Made by a program: the position numbers and the translations under genes
Origin: a virus
Taxonomy: Duplodnaviria > Caudoviricetes
DNA length: 64,000 bases
Virus record (IMG/VR): IMGVR_UViG_3300037400_001617
Direction: 5' to 3' (one strand)
Notes under the pieces: model-generated
The model's input: the letters and a program-made list of their open reading frames with translations, nothing else
Database searches by the model: none
What the model was told of the DNA's origin: nothing
Part shown: positions 9,665 to 63,271 of the stretch, one piece after another
Layout: every line of letters starts with the position of its first letter
How positions within the stretch are numbered: position 1 is the stretch's first letter

Positions 9665-10111
9665 TTGATTGTATGAGTCAATGAATGACTTCTCGGAGCC
9701 ATTGATACTACTAAGGGCTTGAGACATTTGAGACTTTGAGATAAGACGAACTTCACGGAAGTTGAAGTCTTTGACAGACCAAATGTCATTGAGCCATAGT
9801 ATAATGTAATAGAGCTCTCCGTTTCCATAGAGGAAATCGGCTAAGAGCTTAGGTCTAAAACGATATCTGAGGTACTCTTGCTCAGATAACGTGACCTTGG
9901 TAGACATATCTTTCAGATCCTGTATATAGTCTGACATGACATTGTATACATCGAACTCGATGTGATGTGCTGTATCGGGCTCTAACAGAGAAAGATAGTA
10001 GTATGACAACTGACCAGACGGCTTAGCATTAACGAAGTCGTCTAAAGTACAAGTTCTTGAAGGAACTTGCTGTGCGGAATTGACGTAGGTAGATGAGTTA
10101 TTGTACTTCAT
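9647..10111 (-). CDS. baseplate wedge (T4 gp53/LysM-like) protein
   Basis: RFRPKLLADFLYGNGELYYIILWLND resembles the gp53 RP..lA...YG....wiil..N pattern; ATG overlaps the upstream stop (ATGA). Confidence 0.55.
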   Translation of the reverse strand: MKYNNSSTYVNSAQQVPSRTCTLDDFVNAKPSGQLSYYYLSLLEPDTAHHIEFDVYNVMSDYIQDLKDMSTKVTLSEQEYLRYRFRPKLLADFLYGNGELYYIILWLNDIWSVKDFNFREVRLISKSQMSQALSSINGSEKSFIDSYNQSASAT

Positions 10112-10515: not shown

Positions 10516-11163
10516 ATGGCTATGCTTTATACACTTGATTATTCTCCATTTAAGAAGCTTACACCAAGTCAGTATAAAAAGGGTATACCGAGTCTGGACA
10601 GTTATACTGGTATAGAAGGACTGTTACAGTCGGTAAGACCAAAAGATCGTGAAGCTATCAGAACAGTACTCACATATGATCCATCGATCATATTCATGGA
10701 TATCATGTACTATGCTGGTATTGGAACCAGTAATGGTATCGTCGTAGATAATGATACTATGAGACCATTACCTTACAATGGAAACAAGCTCATGAGATAT
10801 CCTGCTGTTATCGGCGGATGCGGAAACATGAACATAGTCAACTTCGATCCTATCTTCAACCTTAAGATGATGGAGATAGTCTTCACTGTGTATATCACTA
10901 AGATATCTGCAGAGAGAAACATAAGCATCAAGTCATTCTATATATACGGACGTCAGAACCAACTTAAATCTGGTGAGTTGTGTTTAGACGACTATAAGGG
11001 AACTAAACTAGTTTCGGATCAATTCATGACTGATACTGTATGCTATATCAATCTGATGATGCAGATTGAGGGTGTAGACAGAGAAACAGCATACAATCAG
11101 TGTGCGGCTCTTGACAACTACATCGTTTGCTCAAAGAAGATGAAAGGACGTCATTATGAATGA
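10516..11163 (+). CDS. hypothetical protein
   Basis: 215 aa, AAGGAGG SD. Confidence 0.8.
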   Translation: MAMLYTLDYSPFKKLTPSQYKKGIPSLDSYTGIEGLLQSVRPKDREAIRTVLTYDPSIIFMDIMYYAGIGTSNGIVVDNDTMRPLPYNGNKLMRYPAVIGGCGNMNIVNFDPIFNLKMMEIVFTVYITKISAERNISIKSFYIYGRQNQLKSGELCLDDYKGTKLVSDQFMTDTVCYINLMMQIEGVDRETAYNQCAALDNYIVCSKKMKGRHYE

Positions 11164-12364
11164 TTATGGATCACTGAACACTAATCAGCGTAGAGTGTTC
11201 GACGCAGCTATGGAATGGTGGAAAGGTGCTCGATCTGAACCGTTCGAGATCTCTGGACCACCAGGCTCTGGCAAGACATATCTGATAAACACTATAGTCG
11301 ATTACCTCGGTATAGCTAGAGAAAAAATAGCTCCACTCGCATACACTGGAGCGGCCGCAATCAATATGAGAGTTCATGGAATGGAGAACGCTAAAACTGC
11401 TCATTCATGGCTCTATCTTCCAGTAATGCAACAGCTAGTCGACGAAAATGGTAAACCTATCATAGATCCAAGAACTGGTAAGCAAAAAGTGGTGATAAAA
11501 TACGTCGAAAGAGAATCACTACCAGGTATAGATCTCTTGATAATAGATGAGGGTGGCACTATACCACCCAACATGAGAGCTACTATAGAGAAACATCATA
11601 TACCAACCATAGTAGCAGGAGATATAGATCAATTGCCACCAGTACATGGTAAGCCTGCGTATCTGAATGATCCCCGCAAGATTCACTTCCTAACGGAGAT
11701 CATGAGACAGGCTCAGGATAGTGGTATAGTCTATATCTCTCAAATGGTAAAAGATGGAAGACAACCGCATTGTGGACTCTGGAAAGATGCGCTTGTCATC
11801 CATCGAAATCAGCTAACCTTAGATATGCTCTTAAGGTCAAAGATTATACTATGTGGCAGAAACGTCACTAGAGACTATTATAATGACTTCATGAGAGCTA
11901 CCTATGGTTTTGCAGGACAGCTACCAATGTATGGTGAGAGGGTAGTATGTCGTAAGAACAACTGGAATGTCGTCACTCCAGATGGAATCAATCTCACCAA
12001 TGGTCTTTTAGGTATGTGTATAAATGACCCAAAGTATACATATGATAGAAAGCATGATTCTTTCGTCTTAGACTTTGCACCAGATATGAGTACTGGTGTA
12101 ACGTCTAATGTATTCCACGGTCTCGACTGTTCATACACATACTTCACATCGGATGCTAAAGTCCGTGAGAAACTACGAAACGATCCCGAAATAAAGACTG
12201 AAAGATTTGAGTTTGGATATGCCATTACTACCCACATGTCACAAGGCTCTGAGTACGACAATGGTATATACATAGAAGAATCACTCAACAAGAGCATAGA
12301 TCACAAACTTAACTACGTTGGAGTTACACGCTTCAGAAAGTTTTGTATCTATGTAAAAGAGTGA
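11156..12364 (+). CDS. Dda/RecD-like SF1B DNA helicase
   Basis: GPPGSGKT, AYTGAAA, IIDE, GDIDQLPPV, LTEIMRQ, YAITTHMSQGSE, YVGVTR. Confidence 0.9.
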   Translation: MNDYGSLNTNQRRVFDAAMEWWKGARSEPFEISGPPGSGKTYLINTIVDYLGIAREKIAPLAYTGAAAINMRVHGMENAKTAHSWLYLPVMQQLVDENGKPIIDPRTGKQKVVIKYVERESLPGIDLLIIDEGGTIPPNMRATIEKHHIPTIVAGDIDQLPPVHGKPAYLNDPRKIHFLTEIMRQAQDSGIVYISQMVKDGRQPHCGLWKDALVIHRNQLTLDMLLRSKIILCGRNVTRDYYNDFMRATYGFAGQLPMYGERVVCRKNNWNVVTPDGINLTNGLLGMCINDPKYTYDRKHDSFVLDFAPDMSTGVTSNVFHGLDCSYTYFTSDAKVREKLRNDPEIKTERFEFGYAITTHMSQGSEYDNGIYIEESLNKSIDHKLNYVGVTRFRKFCIYVKE

Positions 12365-12399
12365 TGTATTCTTCTAACAAACTCACAACAATATAGTAT

Positions 12400-12516
12400 G
12401 GCGGTGCAGCTATGCACTATTAGACTCTCACAGCAGTTCTCTATGTTAAAATGGACAGTTATGAGTCTAGACGAGCGATTCTTTAAGAGTTGAATCTTAA
12501 GCAGTTACCGCCACCA
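12400..12516 (+). ncRNA. candidate tRNA-like small RNA with encoded CCA end
   Basis: GGCGGTG/TACCGCC stem followed by ACCA; AACA-N6-TA motif at 12387-12398; hairpin at 12521-12546. Confidence 0.55.
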
Positions 12517-12520
12517 CCTT

Positions 12521-12546
12521 TCCGTAGTGGAAATGTCCACTACGGA
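12521..12546 (+). terminator. terminator-like hairpin
   Basis: TCCGTAGTGGA-aatg-TCCACTACGGA, 11-bp perfect stem, no clear U-tract. Confidence 0.6.
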
Positions 12547-12630
12547 TAAGTTGTCTTAAAACAACTTTTGGCTACATATCATACCTTTGAGTCAAGAACA
12601 ATACTAAGACTCAGAAAGGAAATCGAAACA

Positions 12631-13347
12631 ATGAGCGATAACATTGTAAACCCCTTTGGTATTGTGAATCCTGTATCTGGTGAAGTAACCGAACAGGAAG
12701 TTAATCCTACCAAAGAGGATCTCAAACTTATCAAAGAAAAGGAAAAGAGACTGGCAGAAGAGGCTAAGAAGAACCTCAAGACAGTCAAAGTTGCAGATGG
12801 TACAGCAACAACTAAGAGACCTGCTAAGAATAAGAGAGCTCCACAGGCTCCAGTAGTAGCAGGTAAACCACAACAGCAGAATGTTCCTCAGAAGCCTAAG
12901 CAGATACAGTCTGTAAAAGAGTATCTTGTGTGCTTTGTATTTGAGGGACAGGATATGACTGAACCAGACTGGACACGTTCCAGATGGATAACTGCAGAAG
13001 GAAGAGGTTTATGCTTTGCTAAGACAGTAAGCATGATTCATGATATAACCTCTGAAAATGAAGACTTCTATGATCCTATCGATTATGAGGAGTCATTCGT
13101 GTTATGCACGGGAGTCAAGTATGAAGAGAAGGTTCCGCTCCTTCAGTTCATCAGACTCTGCATCGAGAAAGAAGCCAAAGCAATAGACAAGTATATGCTT
13201 GACTATATGCAGGCAGTCCTCAAGTCATACGAAACTGGTTCGTTTGAACCTATTGACGAATGGGTCAAGGTTAACAATGATACACCTTGTACTCCACAGG
13301 TTCAGCAGACCATGTATACATCACTTGAGGGTGAAGATATAAACTAA
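12631..13347 (+). CDS. hypothetical protein
   Basis: start moved to ATG 12631 after GAAAGGA; MSDNIVNPFGIVNP... Confidence 0.8.
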   Translation: MSDNIVNPFGIVNPVSGEVTEQEVNPTKEDLKLIKEKEKRLAEEAKKNLKTVKVADGTATTKRPAKNKRAPQAPVVAGKPQQQNVPQKPKQIQSVKEYLVCFVFEGQDMTEPDWTRSRWITAEGRGLCFAKTVSMIHDITSENEDFYDPIDYEESFVLCTGVKYEEKVPLLQFIRLCIEKEAKAIDKYMLDYMQAVLKSYETGSFEPIDEWVKVNNDTPCTPQVQQTMYTSLEGEDIN

Positions 13348-13369
13348 ACTAGCCAAGGAGGACACTAAT

Positions 13370-14137
13370 ATGGCACAGAACAACAAACCAAGACAGCCTC
13401 GTAAGACGTGGTTTGATAACCAGGCCGAGAGGAAAGGACAGAGGTTTCTGGACGGTTGGGCCAATGGTCAGGACAGAGACTTCATATTACCAGATAAAAA
13501 GATAAGAGCCATCGATAATATCCTGAGAGATATTAAAGATGGCCAGATAAATCAGATTAGGGATATAACTCCAACAAGGTTACTTAACAAGGACCTTCTG
13601 TATTCCATCACGCAGGTATGTAAAGCGAGACTGGATTATTTTAACCGTATGTATAATGCGTTTGTTATGCTCGACATGGTAAGCTACTGCGTTCTGACAC
13701 AGAAACGGCTTTATGAACTGACAGAAGGAATAACAGACGTAGATGAAAAAATGAAGCATCTTGAAAAGATTGGTGTTGACAGAAACTATATTTGGCTCGT
13801 CGGCACTATGCCTTTAGACGGAGCATATGATCCCATGACCAACACTTACAAAGGTGGTATACCTTATACAAGAGAGCTTCAGCAAGCACACAATCACCCA
13901 GCATATCAAACGCAGATATGGATGGCTGAGAGGTATAAAACCATGTATAAGATCATGTACAATATCTTCTCAAAAATCTATGATGGTGTGGCACATAACA
14001 CGCTCAAACAGTCGGATATAACATTTTATGAGCAGATTCAGTCAGCAATGAAAAACGCTGAAGAGCATAAGTTCCCAAATGGAATGAAGGTGCCGCTTGA
14101 CTTCAATGTGCTGACTGGATACGACTACATGCTTTAA
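13370..14137 (+). CDS. hypothetical protein
   Basis: 255 aa, AAGGAGG SD. Confidence 0.8.
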   Translation: MAQNNKPRQPRKTWFDNQAERKGQRFLDGWANGQDRDFILPDKKIRAIDNILRDIKDGQINQIRDITPTRLLNKDLLYSITQVCKARLDYFNRMYNAFVMLDMVSYCVLTQKRLYELTEGITDVDEKMKHLEKIGVDRNYIWLVGTMPLDGAYDPMTNTYKGGIPYTRELQQAHNHPAYQTQIWMAERYKTMYKIMYNIFSKIYDGVAHNTLKQSDITFYEQIQSAMKNAEEHKFPNGMKVPLDFNVLTGYDYML

Positions 14138-14185
14138 CCAGGCACTCAACTTATCTATAATACTAACCAAAGGAGGTTAATAGTT

Positions 14186-14722
14186 ATGGATAAAGCAAAA
14201 CTTATAGCTCTTAGAAAAGAGCTTCATCAGCTTACCAATATAGCTAGAAAGAATCCCGATCAGAAGATAGATGTACCGCTCATCATAGCAATCGATCACG
14301 GTACTACTGTAATCGACGAGATCGATAGTTGTATAATGTGGGATGATGATAACGAAGTATTGTACTCAATCGAGTACAATAACAACGTGAACGACAAGCT
14401 GTACAATATCTGCCCGATGAGAATCAGAGCATTTCAGTACAGCACGATCGTTTCAGTAACTGCGAGAGCAGATCTGAATATGCTTATGGACTTCTTCGAC
14501 TCAAAGATTTCTGACGGAATCACGAATGAGACTACTAAGGAGAAGTACAGAAAGGCATACATGGATATGAGAGATCCGAGAACCTTCGCTGCAGGACATC
14601 CTAGTCCGTCTACTTCAAAGGATCTTCCTTTGAATCAGGTAGATAGATTCAACGAAGACTTCCCGCTCATGAATCCATCAGCTATCATGGCAAACCTCGA
14701 GAACTCAAATCCTGAGGTATAA
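14186..14722 (+). CDS. hypothetical protein
   Basis: 178 aa, AAGGAGG SD, AACT-N6-TA motif upstream. Confidence 0.8.
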   Translation: MDKAKLIALRKELHQLTNIARKNPDQKIDVPLIIAIDHGTTVIDEIDSCIMWDDDNEVLYSIEYNNNVNDKLYNICPMRIRAFQYSTIVSVTARADLNMLMDFFDSKISDGITNETTKEKYRKAYMDMRDPRTFAAGHPSPSTSKDLPLNQVDRFNEDFPLMNPSAIMANLENSNPEV

Positions 14723-14806
14723 ACACAATAACAATTGTATACAATAGAGGGGTACGAGAGGATCCCTCTTGTATAAATCAAAATTCTTTTAAGGAGGACA
14801 TCGACA

Positions 14807-15883
14807 ATGATGTACAATTCTGTTTTCAACACACCCAACGGAGGAATCTATCCTTCAACAGTAATCAACCCCGTTAATGAGAAGCCTCAGGTTTCTACTC
14901 TTAACGAAAAGGAAGAGAAGATCCTCGCTTCAACAGGCGGAAACGAGTTCGTTTTCACAGAGGAAGAAATGGCAGTAGCTCACTGCAACCACGCTCCATC
15001 AAACAACGGCCAGAATGTTCTGGAAGTAGAAAGCGATGACGGAGTTGTTGCAAAGTTCCGTTGCAGACGCTGCCACACTACATTCGAAGTGGACAGAAGA
15101 ATCACTGAGAGTGATGTAAGCAAGGTGTGCGAGGTAATGCATAATATACTCAACACCATCAAAACATATCTTGGATCTGAGATCTCACCTCAGTTCGCAA
15201 GAGACGTGTTCAGCATTGATGCAGCTTTCCCGAAGCTGCCTAAGCTCTACTCACAGGCTAAGAAGAGCATCGAGCAGAAAGTCGCTGCACTCAATCAGCA
15301 GTTCCAGTATGCAAATCCTGGTGCTTACTTCGGCCAGGCAAATCCATACCAGACTGCATTCGCAAACGGTCTGAACAGTCCGTCAGCACAGTACCAGTAC
15401 AACCAGTACGCTGCAGCTGCATATCCTACCTTCAATGGTAATGGAATGCCTCAGCAGATGTATGGTTACGCAGGACAGCCTGGAATGCCTGTAAATCCAT
15501 ATGCAGCTCAGACACCTCAGATGGTAAATCCTTATGCTCCTCAGCAGGGATATGCACCTTCTCCTGTTGGCGGTCTGATGACTGCAGAAAATCCGCTGTA
15601 TACTTCACAGACTAGCGGAGTAGCTCCTGAGGGTACTGGAACTTATTCAGTTCCTGCTCCCAACTCAGGAATGATGTTCAACAGCGTTGTTCCCTCAAAC
15701 GTAAATGTTGCTCCTGCAGCTCCTATGGCAGGTACAACAACACAGGCAACACCTCAGATGAACATCCCTACAGTAGGAAGTCCTGCACCTGCACTTCCTC
15801 CTGTAACAAACCCTACACCTGCAGCTGCTCCTGCTCCTAATGTAGCAACTCCTGTAGGTAACACAAGCACAATCACACTGTAA
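14807..15883 (+). CDS. Zn-binding N-terminal domain plus Q/Y/G/P/A-rich low-complexity tail
   Basis: CNH...CRRCH; C-terminal ~190 aa almost uncharged with NPY repeats. Confidence 0.8.
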   Translation: MMYNSVFNTPNGGIYPSTVINPVNEKPQVSTLNEKEEKILASTGGNEFVFTEEEMAVAHCNHAPSNNGQNVLEVESDDGVVAKFRCRRCHTTFEVDRRITESDVSKVCEVMHNILNTIKTYLGSEISPQFARDVFSIDAAFPKLPKLYSQAKKSIEQKVAALNQQFQYANPGAYFGQANPYQTAFANGLNSPSAQYQYNQYAAAAYPTFNGNGMPQQMYGYAGQPGMPVNPYAAQTPQMVNPYAPQQGYAPSPVGGLMTAENPLYTSQTSGVAPEGTGTYSVPAPNSGMMFNSVVPSNVNVAPAAPMAGTTTQATPQMNIPTVGSPAPALPPVTNPTPAAAPAPNVATPVGNTSTITL

Positions 15884-37795: not shown

Positions 37796-39136
37796 ATGCT
37801 TAGATCATTCACATTCGGTTGTGGTCAGGGTGCTACAAAGGCAATGATTACGGCCATTGACAATGGTGTACTTGATAAGGGTAGATGTGTAGTAGTTAAC
37901 TCTACGATCAAAGATGTCCCTTCAGAGTACAGACCTACTGCTATCATCATCTCAGACGATCCTGACGCAGGTTGTGGTAAAGTAAGAGACGCAGCGCGTG
38001 CGTTGATGAATGACTTTATCAAGGTTAACCCAAACTATCTCGAGGAACTTATCCCCGAAGATACAGACTATGTAAATATTATCACCACTTCAGAAGGTGC
38101 TTCTGGTAGTGGTTCTTCTGTAGTACTTGCTCAGTACATCAGTAACTCTATTCAGCTTCCTGTTATCATTACACTGATCACAGGCTTCGAGTCTGATGTA
38201 AGAGGTCTTCAGAACACTATCAACTACTTCAGAGACCTTAAGGGTGCTAACTGCGGAATCATCACTGTATCAAACAGACGTTTCCTCAATGAAGCTAACG
38301 GCAATATCTTCGTTGCAGAGAAGCTTGCTAATGAGGATATCTCTAAAACACTCTCTATCGTCGGAGCTCAGGGTCTTATAGACTGCGAGCAGAACATCGA
38401 TGATACAGATCACTACAAGATTATCACCAATCCTGGTGTAGTCTTCGCTGGTGAAGTTGAAGTGTCAGACCGTATCAAGAATGCCGAACAGTTCAACAAG
38501 CTTGTTGGCGATATGATCGACAATACTACTTCACTTGACTTCGAGCCTTCTGCTACTAAGGTAGGTATCTACATGAACATACCTGAGGAGACTATAGAAG
38601 TACTCGATACTTCATTCTCTATCATCAAGAAGAAGCTCTGCTGGAATGGCTTCCAGGAGTTCTTCATCCACAGACAGTATAATCCTAAGCAGAAGAGTTT
38701 CATCAGAGTCATTGCTTCGGGTATCAACATGCCTAAGGCTGAACTGATGAGCATGTACGACAAGTTCGAGAAGTCTACCAACCAGATGAACGCTGCAGAG
38801 GATGACTTCTTCGATACTCTTGGTAAACTTGAGACTAATGCACAGCTGGAGAAGAAGGTTGAAAGAGATGATTCATTTCTTGACTCCTTCGCAACAGCTT
38901 CTAGCGATGAAGCTAGCGCAGTCTTATCGAGAAATAAGAGGAAGTCGGGTGTTAAGCTCGGCACATCAAAGCACTCGGCACCTGAGAAAGTTTCAGACAC
39001 AACTGATAAGGTTGCTGATGAAGAAGTGAAAAAGAATCCTCTTACTACCAACGGTAAGACTCAGATAAATCCCAAACACTCTATGGGTACTAACAAGCAT
39101 CTCACAGAGTTCTCGGAAGAGGGAATCAACAAGTAA
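37796..39136 (+). CDS. phuZ: PhuZ/TubZ-like tubulin-FtsZ family protein
   Basis: FGCGQGATKA, VVVNS, AGCGK, EGASGSG (variant of GGGTG[ST]G), NIDDTD (T7-loop-like), long charged tail. Confidence 0.85.
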   Translation: MLRSFTFGCGQGATKAMITAIDNGVLDKGRCVVVNSTIKDVPSEYRPTAIIISDDPDAGCGKVRDAARALMNDFIKVNPNYLEELIPEDTDYVNIITTSEGASGSGSSVVLAQYISNSIQLPVIITLITGFESDVRGLQNTINYFRDLKGANCGIITVSNRRFLNEANGNIFVAEKLANEDISKTLSIVGAQGLIDCEQNIDDTDHYKIITNPGVVFAGEVEVSDRIKNAEQFNKLVGDMIDNTTSLDFEPSATKVGIYMNIPEETIEVLDTSFSIIKKKLCWNGFQEFFIHRQYNPKQKSFIRVIASGINMPKAELMSMYDKFEKSTNQMNAAEDDFFDTLGKLETNAQLEKKVERDDSFLDSFATASSDEASAVLSRNKRKSGVKLGTSKHSAPEKVSDTTDKVADEEVKKNPLTTNGKTQINPKHSMGTNKHLTEFSEEGINK

Positions 39137-40602: not shown

Positions 40603-42834
40603 ATGAAAATCGAACAGAACCCAAAACTTGACCAAGCATTTGCTGAAGTCTATGCGTCTAATCGTCCGATAGATCAGATGCTTGGTAGATCAGGACTCCA
40701 GATATGTGAGTCCCTGAATTCATCTTCAAGAAAGATAATGCATTCCAACCAGAAGAAACAAGCTAAGTGTCCGAAGGAACCAGAGGTTCCTCTTGCTGGT
40801 ACTGGAATAGAGAACCGTTATGGACACAAATCATCGGCATTCTTACAGTCTAATGAAGCACAGACTGTAATAGCCAAGATAAGTAGATACTCTATGTACC
40901 CAGACCATGAGTACTATCTTATCCTTAAGAACGAACACAACGAGCTCAATATGGTGACTCGTAAAGTTTGTCAGCACAACACCGAGACATTCGGTTTCCT
41001 TTGGAACAATGATTACATCGATTCTCTTCAGGAGGATGATGTCATTCCTAAAGGAACAGTGTATAAGAAAAGCACCAGTTTCGATGAGTACAATAACTAC
41101 AAAGCTGGTGTAAATGCGCTTGCTACTTATGCAAGCCTTCCTCAGACTACAGAAGACCCTGTTATCATAAGACAGGGATTCCGTAAGAAACTCAGCTCTC
41201 CAGAGTTTAAGAGTATAACCGTTAAGTTAAACGACAACGATGTATTCTTAAATCTGTATGGAGACGAAAACGTCTATAAGGCTTTCCCAGATCTCGGTGA
41301 AGAGACTAAGAACGGTATACTCTGTTCTATAAGAAAAGCCAATTCAGACAACTCAGCGTTTACCTTATCTAGAGACTCACTCAGAAATATAACTATCTCT
41401 GATGAGACTATAGTTCCCAAAGAAGGTAAAGTCATAGACATAAAAGTCTATTCTAACAAGCAGATAGCCCCAGGACGTGAGGATGGAGAACTCTACAACG
41501 TCTTTGAGGGTCAGCTTAGAATGTACGTTGATGAAGAGAACCGTTTCGCTAGACAGTTTGTCGAAGCTATGGCTAACTACATCAACAACAAGGACTACAA
41601 GGTATCTTATGAGCTGGAAGAGATGTACTATAACTGTCAGGGTAGACTTGAAGGAAAGCAGTTTATCGAAGATGGTAAGATCACCAGCAATATAGTTATA
41701 GAGTTCCTTGTATACTGCGATCACAATATATCTATAGGTGATAAGCTTGCTAACCGTAATGGAGGTAAAGGCGTTATCGCTGATATATGGCCAGATGAAA
41801 TGATGCCAAAACTTCCAGATGGAACACCTATCGACATTATATGGGATGAGAGTACTTGTGTAAACCGACTCAATATAGCTCAGCTCTCAGAACTGTCTAT
41901 CAATCGTATTGGTAGAGGAATCCTCGACTATATCAACTTGGGTGTACTTGATACTGCACAGATATGTGGAATACTCACAGACTTCTATAGAGAGCTTTCA
42001 CCAGATCTTGCAGACTTCTTCCAGAAGACTCTTGAGTGTTGTGAGACTGATCAGGAACTTATTACGCTCGTAGAGTCATTCTTATATCCTACTGAAGGGC
42101 CTAGAGGAATCTATACTTCCCTTCTTCCTATCAGTGAGTGCGTAGACTTCGATAAGATCAGAAAGATCTATGAGAAGTTCTCATATATCAAGCAGGAATA
42201 TCTTCAGGTACCTATACAGAACTCAGATGGTACTTATCGTTATACATGGTCTAATAAACCATCTACGGTAGGTGAACAGTTCATATACATCCTCAAGCAG
42301 GAAGCTGAAGAGAAACACTCTGCTACTTCTGCATCTTCGACTAATATCAAGGATGAGAACAGCAAGAGTAAAGAGTCTAAGGAGTACAGATGTGCTATCA
42401 CTAAGACTCCAGTTAAGTGGGGAGAGATGGAGACAATGATCTTCCTCCACTGTAGCTCAGAGACTGTAGTAGTCAACGCTATGCTGATGTCTCTGTCTCC
42501 TAGAGCACGTAGAAGTGTCATGGACATGCTTCTCGGAGATCCGTATCATATCGATATCCATATCGACATGGATGCTCGTAACAGATCTGCAGAAAAGGTA
42601 CAGGCTATTATGAAGGGTATGGGACTTAGACTAAAGTTTAAGAAGATACCTATAGTCAAAAAGCCAGTATTCGAGATGGCAGAACAGAAGATGCTCTTCG
42701 AAATAGTTCCGCAGAAGATGCTTTTTGAGCAGATACCTCAGAAGATGCTCTTCGAACCTATGGAGATGAAACCTCTGTTCGAGCCAGTAAAGCAGGAATT
42801 ACTTTTCAAACCACTTTGGTTATGCAAAGACTAA
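40603..42834 (+). CDS. RNA polymerase beta subunit, C-terminal part (probably non-virion RNAP)
   Basis: SSRKIMHSNQ, TEDPVII, GDKLANRNGGKGV, PIDII...NRLN, KWGEME. Confidence 0.9.
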   Translation: MKIEQNPKLDQAFAEVYASNRPIDQMLGRSGLQICESLNSSSRKIMHSNQKKQAKCPKEPEVPLAGTGIENRYGHKSSAFLQSNEAQTVIAKISRYSMYPDHEYYLILKNEHNELNMVTRKVCQHNTETFGFLWNNDYIDSLQEDDVIPKGTVYKKSTSFDEYNNYKAGVNALATYASLPQTTEDPVIIRQGFRKKLSSPEFKSITVKLNDNDVFLNLYGDENVYKAFPDLGEETKNGILCSIRKANSDNSAFTLSRDSLRNITISDETIVPKEGKVIDIKVYSNKQIAPGREDGELYNVFEGQLRMYVDEENRFARQFVEAMANYINNKDYKVSYELEEMYYNCQGRLEGKQFIEDGKITSNIVIEFLVYCDHNISIGDKLANRNGGKGVIADIWPDEMMPKLPDGTPIDIIWDESTCVNRLNIAQLSELSINRIGRGILDYINLGVLDTAQICGILTDFYRELSPDLADFFQKTLECCETDQELITLVESFLYPTEGPRGIYTSLLPISECVDFDKIRKIYEKFSYIKQEYLQVPIQNSDGTYRYTWSNKPSTVGEQFIYILKQEAEEKHSATSASSTNIKDENSKSKESKEYRCAITKTPVKWGEMETMIFLHCSSETVVVNAMLMSLSPRARRSVMDMLLGDPYHIDIHIDMDARNRSAEKVQAIMKGMGLRLKFKKIPIVKKPVFEMAEQKMLFEIVPQKMLFEQIPQKMLFEPMEMKPLFEPVKQELLFKPLWLCKD
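42658..42819 (+). repeat. six 27-bp (9-aa) tandem units at the RNAP beta C-terminus
   Basis: KKPVFEMAE/QKMLFEIVP/QKMLFEQIP/QKMLFEPME/MKPLFEPVK/QELLFKPLW; CAGAAGATGCT recurs at 42685, 42712 and 42739. Confidence 0.9.
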
Positions 42835-63196: not shown

Positions 63197-63271
63197 TGGT
63201 TGGGGCAGCGGGGATCGAACCCACGGATGACAGAGTCAAAGTCTGTTGCCTTACCGCTTGGCTATGCCCCA
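63197..63271 (-). tRNA. tRNA-Gln (anticodon UUG) with encoded CCA
   Basis: TGGGGCA/TGCCCCA acceptor, AGCCAAGCGGTAAGGC D-arm, ACAGA-CTTTGAC-TCTGT anticodon arm, GTTCGATC T-loop, ACCA. Confidence 0.95.

What the first reader, a model, noticed from the sequence alone, without database searches (positions are those of the whole stretch)
12387..12546. Self-contained ~117-nt RNA with tRNA-like acceptor stem and CCA but no cloverleaf
Seen: AACA-atatag-TA (12387-12398) puts a predicted start 2 nt before GGCGGTG (12400), which pairs with TACCGCC and is followed by A-CCA (ends 12516), then an 11-bp hairpin. Inside are a TAGACTC/GAGTCTA stem enclosing ~33 nt and a T-arm-like TTAAGA-GTTGAA-TCTTAA hairpin. 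There is no canonical D or anticodon arm and no G3-U70 pair, so it is neither a normal tRNA nor tmRNA. Inference: a tRNA mimic that could be aminoacylated or act as a decoy for tRNA-targeting defence nucleases or toxins. An alternative reading: the predicted +1 is the A of an ATG opening a 31-codon leaderless ORF (12398-12493, MAVQLCTIRL...FFKS).
Basis: partly seen in the sequence, partly recalled or inferred. Interest (0 to 1): 0.75.

Follow-up and report, generated by a model that had tools for sequence, protein, structure and literature searches.

The report
Structured phage RNA, not tRNA mimic
A folded non-coding RNA of about 120-150 bases lies between two replication-region genes of an uncultured cattle-gut giant phage and is kept in related phages, but its tRNA-like CCA end occurs in only some of them, so it looks like a new small phage RNA rather than a tRNA mimic.

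Summary
The element is a real, conserved, structured non-coding RNA. Five other lineages of related rumen giant phages carry it at the same place, between a Dda-like helicase gene and an unknown gene. Its helices keep pairing through compensatory changes: 27 pairs, 99.5% paired, 7 pairs changed on both sides, 0 of 500 shuffles as good.

An AR9-type late-promoter motif (AACA-N6-TA) is invariant in all carriers. The closing helix starts at the predicted +1/+2 in most lineages, including L093, whose helix has a quite different sequence.

The tRNA-mimic reading fails:
- ARAGORN and Rfam find nothing, even at E up to 10.
- There is no T-loop, and a natural variant supports a different register for the supposed T-arm.
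- The "discriminator" A pairs with U12399.
- ACCA occurs in only three closely related sequence types; four other lineages have other tails.

The 31-codon ORF is not conserved (0 to 49 codons).

The best reading is a single-copy late transcript that is either a small RNA or a leader. Its 5' end is sealed, and it ends at or reads through a locus-specific hairpin shared with the helicase mRNA. It belongs to no Rfam family. Its function is inferred, not shown.

The parts
12387..12398 (+). Late-promoter-like motif AACA-N6-TA; the predicted +1 is A12398.
   Evidence: It matches the experimentally defined AR9 late consensus AACA-(6N)-TA/G, in which the last base is the start site (PMC5312081). It is invariant in all RNA-bearing relatives. 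In this window the motif is 3.5 times denser in intergenic DNA than in coding DNA, with 17 sense against 5 antisense copies upstream of genes.
12398..12513 (+). Structured RNA domain closed by helix P1.
   Evidence: Folds. The covariance model R1 finds it only at this locus, in the window and in two complete relatives. Covariation was counted.
12399..12406 (+). P1, 5' strand (UGGCGGUG).
   Evidence: It pairs with 12506-12513. In L093 the helix at the same position is replaced by AUUGCGAA/UUCGCAAU. A helix starting at +1/+2 is reached by 45 of 5000 shuffles in L093 and 306 of 5000 in the window.
12506..12513 (+). P1, 3' strand (UACCGCCA).
   Evidence: A12513 pairs with U12399 in the minimum-energy fold. 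The surrounding 3' region is rearranged between lineages, but the pairing is always restored.
12404..12417 (+). P2, a local hairpin (GUGCA-GCUA-UGCAC) that competes with an extension of P1 (GCU 12409-12411 with AGC 12500-12502).
   Evidence: Four of its five pairs are changed on both sides in L091 (GAUGC-GAUU-GCAUC), in the same register. Enforcing P2 costs 0 to 5.8 kcal/mol relative to the minimum-energy fold.
12421..12469 (+). P3, a 7-bp stem (UAGACUC/GAGUCUA) with an inner stem and an A/U-rich apical loop.
   Evidence: Two pairs are changed on both sides: A-U to G-C in four sequences and U-A to A-U in L091. All cells are paired.
12477..12496 (+).
   Evidence: L101 has GAUCC/GGAUC, a compensatory change. 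L002 has a 7-bp and L113 a 4-bp unrelated stem at this place. L001 and L090 have almost no hairpin here.
12514..12520 (+). Single-stranded linker CCACCUU, which contains the 'CCA'.
   Evidence: The linker is 8-11 nt long, and its sequence is not conserved across lineages.
12521..12546 (+). An 11-bp hairpin specific to this locus; a candidate shared terminator or 3'-end element.
   Evidence: It covaries (U-A to C-G in L093, A-U to G-C in L091). It is present just after the helicase gene in L096 and L098, which lack the RNA, and is followed by a U-tract in L098. It occurs once per genome. The terminator scan does not flag it, because there is no U-tract here.
12573..12589 (+). Early-promoter-like motif TACATATCAT-N6-G for the downstream gene; the predicted +1 is G12589.
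   Evidence: It resembles the AR9 early consensus ending ATATATTAT-(6N)-G. It is conserved in L091, L093, L096, L098 and L099. TATAYYAT-N6-G occurs 10 times against 4.1 expected, with 0 of 100 shuffles reaching 10.
12398..12493 (+). 31-codon ATG ORF, rejected as a gene.
   Evidence: The frame runs 31, 29, 10, 10, 7, 49, 26, 0 and 19 codons in the nine sequence types.

Best explanation
This is a single-copy, conserved, structured non-coding RNA of an AR9-like (uracil-DNA type, two-RNA-polymerase) giant phage from the cattle gut.

Inferred mechanism. The phage's non-virion RNA polymerase starts at A12398 from an AACA-N6-TA late promoter that lies 22 nt after the helicase stop codon. The first nucleotides immediately pair with the far end of the domain (P1). 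The 5' end is therefore sealed, which would protect it from 5'-end-dependent decay. Inside P1 are a robust arm (P3), a variable arm (P4) and a 5' segment that can form either a local hairpin (P2) or an extension of P1.

Eight to eleven nucleotides after P1 comes a hairpin specific to this locus, which the helicase mRNA also uses. Transcripts either stop there, giving a small RNA of about 150 nt, or read through into the gene at 12631. This is the pattern described for small RNAs made by premature termination in giant phages.

The 7-bp 'acceptor' plus ACCA is a lineage-specific form of the closing helix and linker, not a tRNA-like functional end.

What is shown: the conservation, the covariation, the single copy and the promoter-motif statistics. 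What is inferred: the start site, the 3' end, the stability role and any regulatory target.
For: - Synteny: the element lies between the helicase and the 238-aa gene in L001/L003, L002/L071, L113, L090, L091 and L093, with a shorter form in L097.
- Covariation: on the model-based alignment of 8 sequences, 27 pairs are 99.5% paired, 7 pairs are changed on both sides, 0 of 500 shuffles reach this, and slid controls pair only 27-46%.
- Closing helix: it is re-created with a different sequence in L093 and starts at the predicted +1/+2 in the window, L001, L090, L093 and L097.
- Promoter: AACA-N6-TA is invariant in the carriers. AR9 late promoters have this consensus with the last base as the start site (PMC5312081). 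The motif is enriched in intergenic DNA and in the sense orientation in this window.
- Phage type: the window encodes an RNA polymerase beta fragment. The nearest cultured helicases are from Staphylococcus jumbo phages and Bacillus phage AR9, at 30-34% identity.
- Copy number: one per genome in two complete relatives of 229 and 232 kb.
- Hairpin: it is retained after the helicase gene in relatives without the RNA.
- Read-through: L097 has no early promoter between the hairpin and the ribosome-binding site. A 479-nt contig from a metatranscriptome library of a 95-99% identical relative bridges 12330-12804.
- Precedent: giant phage 201phi2-1 has 11 small RNAs, 8 of them made by premature termination in 5' UTRs (PMC11512511).
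Against: - No transcript ends were observed, so the start site and the 3' end are predictions.
- The bridging RNA-library contig begins 68 nt upstream of the predicted start, and it could be DNA carry-over.
- The hairpin has no U-tract in this phage and fails the terminator scan.
- The four compensatory pairs of P2 come from one lineage (L091), and the alignment was fitted to the model.
- The family is narrow. Relatives with helicase identity of 61% or less (L094, L096, L098, L099) lack the RNA.
- No conserved target or partner was found, so the function remains inferred.
Confidence: 0.55

Rival explanations
1. tRNA-end mimic. After removal of the 5' AU, the RNA presents a 7-bp acceptor-like helix, a discriminator A and CCA. 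It would then be handled by host tRNA enzymes (RNase P, the CCA-adding enzyme, a synthetase) or would act as a decoy for tRNA-targeting nucleases.
For: The window, L002/L071 and L113 types have GGCGGUG/UACCGCC followed by A-CCA. The phage's one true tRNA gene (Gln, 63197-63271, minus strand) also encodes A-CCA. T4 has precedents: the stable RNAs rnaC and rnaD are annotated in its tRNA cluster, and rnaC has a tRNA-like arm. They are late RNAs of still unknown function (PMC9697503).
Against: There is no tRNA, tmRNA or Y RNA model hit at E up to 10. ARAGORN finds nothing in the window or in 8 homolog loci. ACCA is absent from L001/L003, L090, L091, L093 and L097. The 'discriminator' is paired in the minimum-energy fold. 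There is no UUCRA T-loop. L101 covaries in a different register from the proposed T-arm. In most lineages the closing helix continues as a long, irregular rod rather than as a 7+5 bp acceptor/T stack.
Confidence: 0.07
2. It is only the 3' untranslated region of the helicase mRNA. On this reading the folded domain plus hairpin is a stability or processing element of the upstream transcript, and the AACA-N6-TA match is fortuitous.
For: The element starts 34 nt after the helicase stop codon and shares the hairpin that follows the helicase gene in relatives without the RNA. The RNA-library contig begins at 12330, inside the helicase gene. The bare motif is common: 87 copies in the window against 85 expected.
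Against: The motif is strictly kept in every carrier, while the flanking sequence differs in L091, L093 and L097. The closing helix begins at the predicted +1/+2 in sequence-unrelated versions. L098 has neither the RNA nor the motif, and L096 keeps only a degenerate remnant of the promoter region.
Confidence: 0.15
3. A factor- or ligand-sensing attenuator, riboswitch-like. The closed domain would be a sensor, and the switch between P2 and the extended P1, or between the tail and the hairpin, would set how many late transcripts pass the hairpin into genes 12631-15883.
For: The layout is a closed multi-helix domain 8-11 nt upstream of a hairpin, ahead of a gene. Two mutually exclusive pairings of the 5' segment lie within 0 to 5.8 kcal/mol in all lineages. 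In the window type, CCACCAC (12511-12517) can pair with GUAGUGG (12524-12530) in the 5' arm of the hairpin (read from the sequence).
Against: No Rfam riboswitch matches. The junction and the 3' half are hypervariable, which is unlike a ligand pocket. The tail-hairpin complementarity is not conserved in L001, L090, L091 or L093. The downstream gene has its own early promoter in most lineages.
Confidence: 0.12
4. A leaderless 31-codon protein gene (12398-12493).
For: An ATG sits at the predicted +1/+2 in all lineages but L093, and the frame is open for 31 codons in the window.
Against: The frame length varies across lineages: 31, 29, 10, 10, 7, 49, 26, 0 and 19 codons. L093 has no ATG. The changes in L091 preserve base pairs, not amino acids.
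Confidence: 0.02

Closest known systems
Small RNAs of giant phages made by premature termination or from intergenic units (201phi2-1, phiKZ; PMC11512511)
   Same: A phage promoter is followed within 250 nt by a hairpin end, upstream of a gene. The secondary structure is conserved among related giant phages, and the function is unknown.
   Different: Those RNAs were seen by cappable-seq, whereas here both ends are predicted. The phage group (AR9-like, rumen) and the promoter type differ, and no sequence relation was looked for. Here the unit also lies in the 3' region of the upstream helicase gene.
3'-UTR small RNAs with their own promoter that share the mRNA's terminator (for example DapZ and MicL of enterobacteria; from my own knowledge)
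   Same: A promoter just after or inside the upstream gene and a shared 3' hairpin. The hairpin exists in relatives without the RNA.
   Different: Those RNAs act through Hfq and a seed region. No seed or target was found here.
Phage T4 stable RNAs rnaC and rnaD (species 1 and 2)
   Same: Phage-encoded late stable RNAs of about 120-140 nt with unknown function (PMC9697503). Their ends pair.
   Different: The T4 RNAs lie in the tRNA gene cluster, and rnaC has a canonical T arm (CCGGG-UUCGAAU-CCCGG). This RNA lies apart from the tRNA gene, has no T-loop, and model R1 does not match the T4 region (best 6.4 bits, E 0.34).
tRNA and the tRNA-like domain of tmRNA
   Same: In three sequence types there is a 7-bp terminal helix followed by A-CCA.
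   Different: There are no D, anticodon or T arms of tRNA geometry, no G3-U70 pair, no tag reading frame and no model hit. The CCA is not conserved.

Membership tests
tRNA (Rfam RF00005 / ARAGORN) | A cloverleaf scored by a tRNA covariance model or by ARAGORN. | tested here: not met
   The only tRNA in the window is tRNA-Gln at 63197-63271. There is no tRNA hit in 12340-12640 at E up to 10, and none in 8 homolog loci.
tRNA (Rfam RF00005 / ARAGORN) | A T arm with a 5-bp stem and a 7-nt UUCRANY loop, abutting the acceptor stem. | tested here: not met
   The loop is GUUGAA (6 nt), 5 nt from the 3' strand. L101 covaries as GAUCC/GGAUC in another register. The arm is replaced or absent in L002, L113, L001 and L090.
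tRNA (Rfam RF00005 / ARAGORN) | A conserved 7-bp acceptor stem with an unpaired discriminator and a 3' CCA, either encoded or added. | tested here: not met
   ACCA occurs only in the window, L002/L071 and L113 types. A12513 pairs with U12399. P1 is 5 bp in L091, and in L001 and L090 it is bulged or extended. Post-transcriptional addition of CCA is not testable here.
tmRNA | A tRNA-like domain with a G3-U70 pair, a tag reading frame and pseudoknots. | tested here: not met
   ARAGORN finds no tmRNA. Position 3 pairs as C-G. There is no Rfam tmRNA hit.
T4 species 1/2 RNA (rnaC, rnaD) | Lies in the tRNA gene cluster, is matured with the tRNAs, and (rnaC) has a canonical T arm. | tested here: not met
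   The RNA is about 50 kb from the only tRNA gene. It has no T arm. Model R1 gives 6.4 bits or less on the T4 region. Maturation is not testable here.
Giant-phage small RNA made by premature termination or from an intergenic unit | A mapped transcription start followed within 250 nt by a mapped termination site. | not testable with these tools
   Only the promoter motif and the hairpin are predicted. The runs that were laid on the window are assembled contigs, which cannot show transcript ends.
Giant-phage small RNA made by premature termination or from an intergenic unit | Conserved position relative to homologous genes, and conserved secondary structure. | tested here: met
   Synteny holds in six lineages, and the structure covaries.
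Riboswitch (any Rfam class) | A match to a known aptamer model, with a conserved junction core. | tested here: not met
   There is no Rfam hit, and the junction and the 3' half are hypervariable.

The most novel reading that the evidence does not exclude
In one sublineage (the window, L002 and L113 types), the closing helix of this phage RNA has evolved into a true tRNA-end mimic: a 7-bp helix, then A, then CCA. Host tRNA-end enzymes would process or charge it, or it would soak up tRNA-targeting defence nucleases. That would make it a minimal acceptor-only decoy carried by an AR9-like giant phage.
Probability: 0.07. Interest if true: 0.7.

Novelty: new member of a known kind. Interest (0 to 1): 0.4.

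Why it matters
Small RNAs of giant phages have barely been explored, and none is described for the AR9-like group, which transcribes its genome with its own two RNA polymerases. This element would be a well-supported structured RNA family for uncultured rumen members of that group. It has a predicted late promoter, a sealed 5' end, a possibly bistable 5' segment and a hypervariable arm. It also shows that a helix followed by CCA is not enough to call a tRNA mimic. If its ends are confirmed, it offers a compact test case for how non-virion RNA polymerase transcripts are terminated and stabilised.

Tried and rejected
- DNA searches. Blastn of 11000-14000 against cultured phages found no match. 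An exact 28-mer scan of viral contigs found none. An 18-mer scan of metagenome contigs gave 20 hits, of which only L071 and L081 are true relatives and the rest are chance matches in coding DNA.
- Paralogs. Model R1 found none in the window or in two complete relatives.
- Trans targets. Duplex scanning timed out. Exact complementary matches of 10 nt or more numbered 18, 67 and 65, against means of 13, 42 and 35 with a composition-only shuffled RNA. The one match shared by both relatives (12 nt, in the minus-strand gene 2.4 kb upstream) does not covary with the window's changed RNA (9 of 12 pairs), so it was rejected.
- Anti-Shine-Dalgarno reading of CCACCACCUUU. The tract is not conserved in L001, L090, L091 or L093.
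- Mimicry of the polymerase's template-strand promoter motif by the loop UGUU. By eye, the spacing is wrong, and the motif is absent from L091 and L093.
- An H-type pseudoknot in the P3 loop. It is possible in L001, L002, L090 and L091 but not in the window, so it was not pursued.
- Neighbouring proteins. The genes at 12631, 13370 and 14186 have no Pfam or PHROG family, and the one at 14807 has only sub-threshold zinc-ribbon hits. The protein atlas gave nothing for the 12631 protein.
- Metatranscriptome runs. Only assembled contigs were available. The parts of the window without cover in run X17 (for example 11000-12330) say nothing. Runs X18-X20 hold relatives less than 95% alike (mostly below 90%), on contigs of up to 7 kb that could be DNA.
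- AR9 itself has no counterpart after its Dda-like helicase; the gap there is 47 nt.

Full report
**Observation.**
- the AACA-N6-TA motif at 12387-12398;
- GGCGGTG (12400-12406) pairing with TACCGCC (12506-12512), followed by A12513 and CCA 12514-12516;
- the TAGACTC/GAGTCTA stem (12421-12427 with 12463-12469), which encloses 35 nt;
- the TTAAGA-GTTGAA-TCTTAA hairpin (12483-12500);
- the 11-bp hairpin at 12521-12546;
- a 31-codon ATG ORF at 12398-12493.

The 117-nt core folds at -32.5 kcal/mol with z = -2.07. The 201-nt stretch that includes the hairpins has z = -4.0, with no shuffle as good. ARAGORN and Rfam at gathering thresholds report only a tRNA-Gln at 63197-63271. A permissive Rfam scan of 12340-12640 (E up to 10) gives only four chance-level hits, none to tRNA, tmRNA, Y RNA, 6S RNA or any riboswitch.

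**Context.** The element fills most of a 266-nt gap between a Dda-like helicase gene (11156-12364) and a 238-aa gene of unknown family (12631-13347). The region also holds a DnaB-like helicase and both topoisomerase II subunits. The window further encodes an RNA polymerase beta fragment (40603-42834) and a weak tubulin-like protein. The nearest cultured helicases, at 30-34% identity, belong to Staphylococcus jumbo phages and Bacillus phage AR9. Near-identical DNA occurs in bovine-gut metagenomes from several studies. Two complete relatives are 229 and 232 kb long. This is therefore an uncultured, AR9-like giant phage of the rumen.

**Promoters.**
- AR9 late promoters were mapped experimentally as AACA-(6N)-TA/G with the last base as the start site. 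Its early promoters have the form AAATATATATTAT-(6N)-G (PMC5312081).
- The bare late motif is not over-represented in the window (87 copies against 85 expected). It is, however, 3.5 times denser in intergenic DNA than in coding DNA, and it lies upstream of genes in the sense orientation 17 times against 5 in the antisense control.
- The early-type motif TATAYYAT-N6-G occurs 10 times against 4.1 expected, and no shuffle reaches 10. One early-like motif, TACATATCAT-N6-G at 12573-12589, sits between the hairpin and the downstream gene.

**Relatives.** Helicase-guided searches recovered the same gene order in many contigs. The RNA is present in:
- the window type, including the variants L100 and L101;
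- L002/L071 and L113;
- L001/L003;
- L090 (helicase 81% identical);
- L091 (74%);
- L093 (63%), with a quite different sequence;
- L097 (67%), as a shorter form.

Relatives at 61% identity or below either keep only the hairpin (L096, L098) or have neither the hairpin nor the RNA (L094, L099). A covariance model finds the RNA once per genome, in the window and in both complete relatives.

**Structure.** On the model-based alignment of eight sequences, 27 pairs are 99.5% paired. Seven pairs show changes on both sides, and no shuffle of 500 reaches the observed values. Sliding the partners drops pairing to 27-46%. Two caveats apply: the alignment was fitted to the model, and the lineages are few.
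- P3 changes A-U to G-C in four sequences and U-A to A-U in L091.
- The terminal hairpin changes A-U to G-C in L091 and U-A to C-G in L093.
- That same 5' segment can instead extend the closing helix (GCU with AGC and onward). This extended form is the minimum-energy fold in most lineages. It is nearly continuous in L113, where a 5-nt deletion abuts the two helices. The two states differ by 0 to 5.8 kcal/mol, so the segment may be bistable.
In L101 two substitutions convert GAUUC/GAAUC into GAUCC/GGAUC, which is a different register. In other lineages the arm is replaced by unrelated stems or is nearly absent.

**Closing helix and the CCA.**
- In the minimum-energy folds the closing helix starts at the predicted +1 or +2 in the window, L001, L090, L093 and L097. 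In L093 it is AUUGCGAA/UUCGCAAU, which is unrelated in sequence to GGCGGUG/UACCGCC.
- In L093 only 45 of 5000 shuffles reach a helix of that length starting at +1/+2. In the window 306 of 5000 do.
- In the window, A12513, the proposed discriminator, pairs with U12399.
- The tail after the helix is ACCACC only in the window, L002/L071 and L113 types, which share an identical 3' segment. It is AUAUCC, AUAAAC, UACCUA and UGUAAU in L001, L090, L091 and L093.
- ARAGORN finds nothing in eight homolog loci.
- The T4 stable RNA rnaC, the best-known acceptor-plus-T-arm phage RNA, has a canonical T arm and lies among the tRNA genes. This RNA has neither property, and model R1 does not match the T4 region.
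- The tRNA-mimic reading is therefore not supported for the family. It survives only as a low-probability, lineage-specific possibility.

**ORF.** The frame opened by the ATG runs 31, 29, 10, 10, 7, 49, 26, 0 and 19 codons in the nine sequence types. The changes in L091 keep base pairs rather than amino acids. The ORF is rejected.

**The 3' side.**
- The hairpin at 12521-12546 is unique in each genome.
- It is kept in sequence even in relatives that lack the RNA, where it directly follows the helicase gene. In L098 it is followed by a U-tract. It is thus the 3' element of the helicase transcript, and the promoter-plus-RNA module lies between the stop codon and that element.
- In this phage the hairpin lacks a U-tract and fails the terminator scan.
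- L097 has no early promoter between the hairpin and the ribosome-binding site.
- A 479-nt contig from an rRNA-depleted metatranscriptome of a 95-99% identical relative bridges 12330-12804. That contig may be DNA, and it cannot show transcript ends.
- Partial read-through into the downstream genes is therefore plausible. In 201phi2-1, 8 of 11 small RNAs arise by premature termination in 5' UTRs (PMC11512511), and AR9 genes that are expressed continuously carry both early and late promoters.

**Function.** Nothing points to a target. No conserved complementary site was found in the window or in two complete relatives. The neighbouring proteins have no family. The best-supported account is a late transcript with a sealed 5' end and a possibly bistable 5' segment. 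It would end at, or read through, the hairpin it shares with the helicase mRNA. Its role in stability or regulation is inferred.

**Verdict.** The non-coding RNA reading is supported, the tRNA-mimic reading is not, and the ORF is rejected. The element is a new family of a known kind, a giant-phage small RNA or leader. It is restricted to a narrow clade of rumen phages and is of moderate interest.

Noticed in passing
window 12573-12631: The downstream gene has an early-type promoter (TACATATCAT-N6-G, predicted +1 at G12589) and a leader hairpin (GAGUC 12589-12593 with GACUC 12608-12612). CCUUU (12584-12588), just upstream of that start, can pair with AAAGG (12615-12619) in the ribosome-binding site. 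So only transcripts coming from upstream, not early transcripts, could mask the site. The pairing is partly kept in L093 and weak in L091.
   Followed up: partly
window 12450-12507; L002, L113, L001, L090: The 3' half of the RNA (the P4 arm and the junction) is swapped or deleted between close relatives, while the first 38 nt stay 89-95% identical in the closest relatives (79% in L091). Contigs of two RNA-library runs also replace 56 nt with 70 other letters here.
   Followed up: partly
L096:4213-4356, L098:2588-2745: Relatives without the RNA keep the hairpin core GUAGUGGG...CCCACUAC right after the helicase gene. L096 also keeps a degenerate remnant of the promoter region, which suggests that the RNA module was lost or gained as a unit.
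   Followed up: partly
window 63197-63271 (-): tRNA-Gln(UUG) with an encoded A-CCA end. It is the only tRNA that ARAGORN finds in the 229-kb complete relative.
   Followed up: partly
window 37796-39136 and 40603-42834: A weak tubulin/FtsZ-like hit (E 4e-4, below the Pfam cut-off) and an RNA polymerase beta (Rpb2 domain 6) fragment. These fit a phage with its own multisubunit polymerases and perhaps a tubulin-based spindle.
   Followed up: no
window 12400-12413: From memory only: GGCGGUG-CA-GCUA resembles the start of some bacterial tRNAs (acceptor stem, then UA, then the D-stem GCUC), and the AGC at 12500-12502 that pairs with GCU resembles a D-stem partner. A distant tRNA ancestry cannot be excluded, but no tRNA model detects it.
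   Followed up: partly
window about 9977-9998 (-); G001 158026-158037; G002 105588-105599: In two relatives, a 12-nt copy of the RNA's AGGCUCUAACAG lies inside the minus-strand gene 2.4 kb upstream, so that gene's mRNA would be complementary to the RNA. The window's RNA has changed at three of these positions while the gene has not, which makes chance likely.
   Followed up: yes
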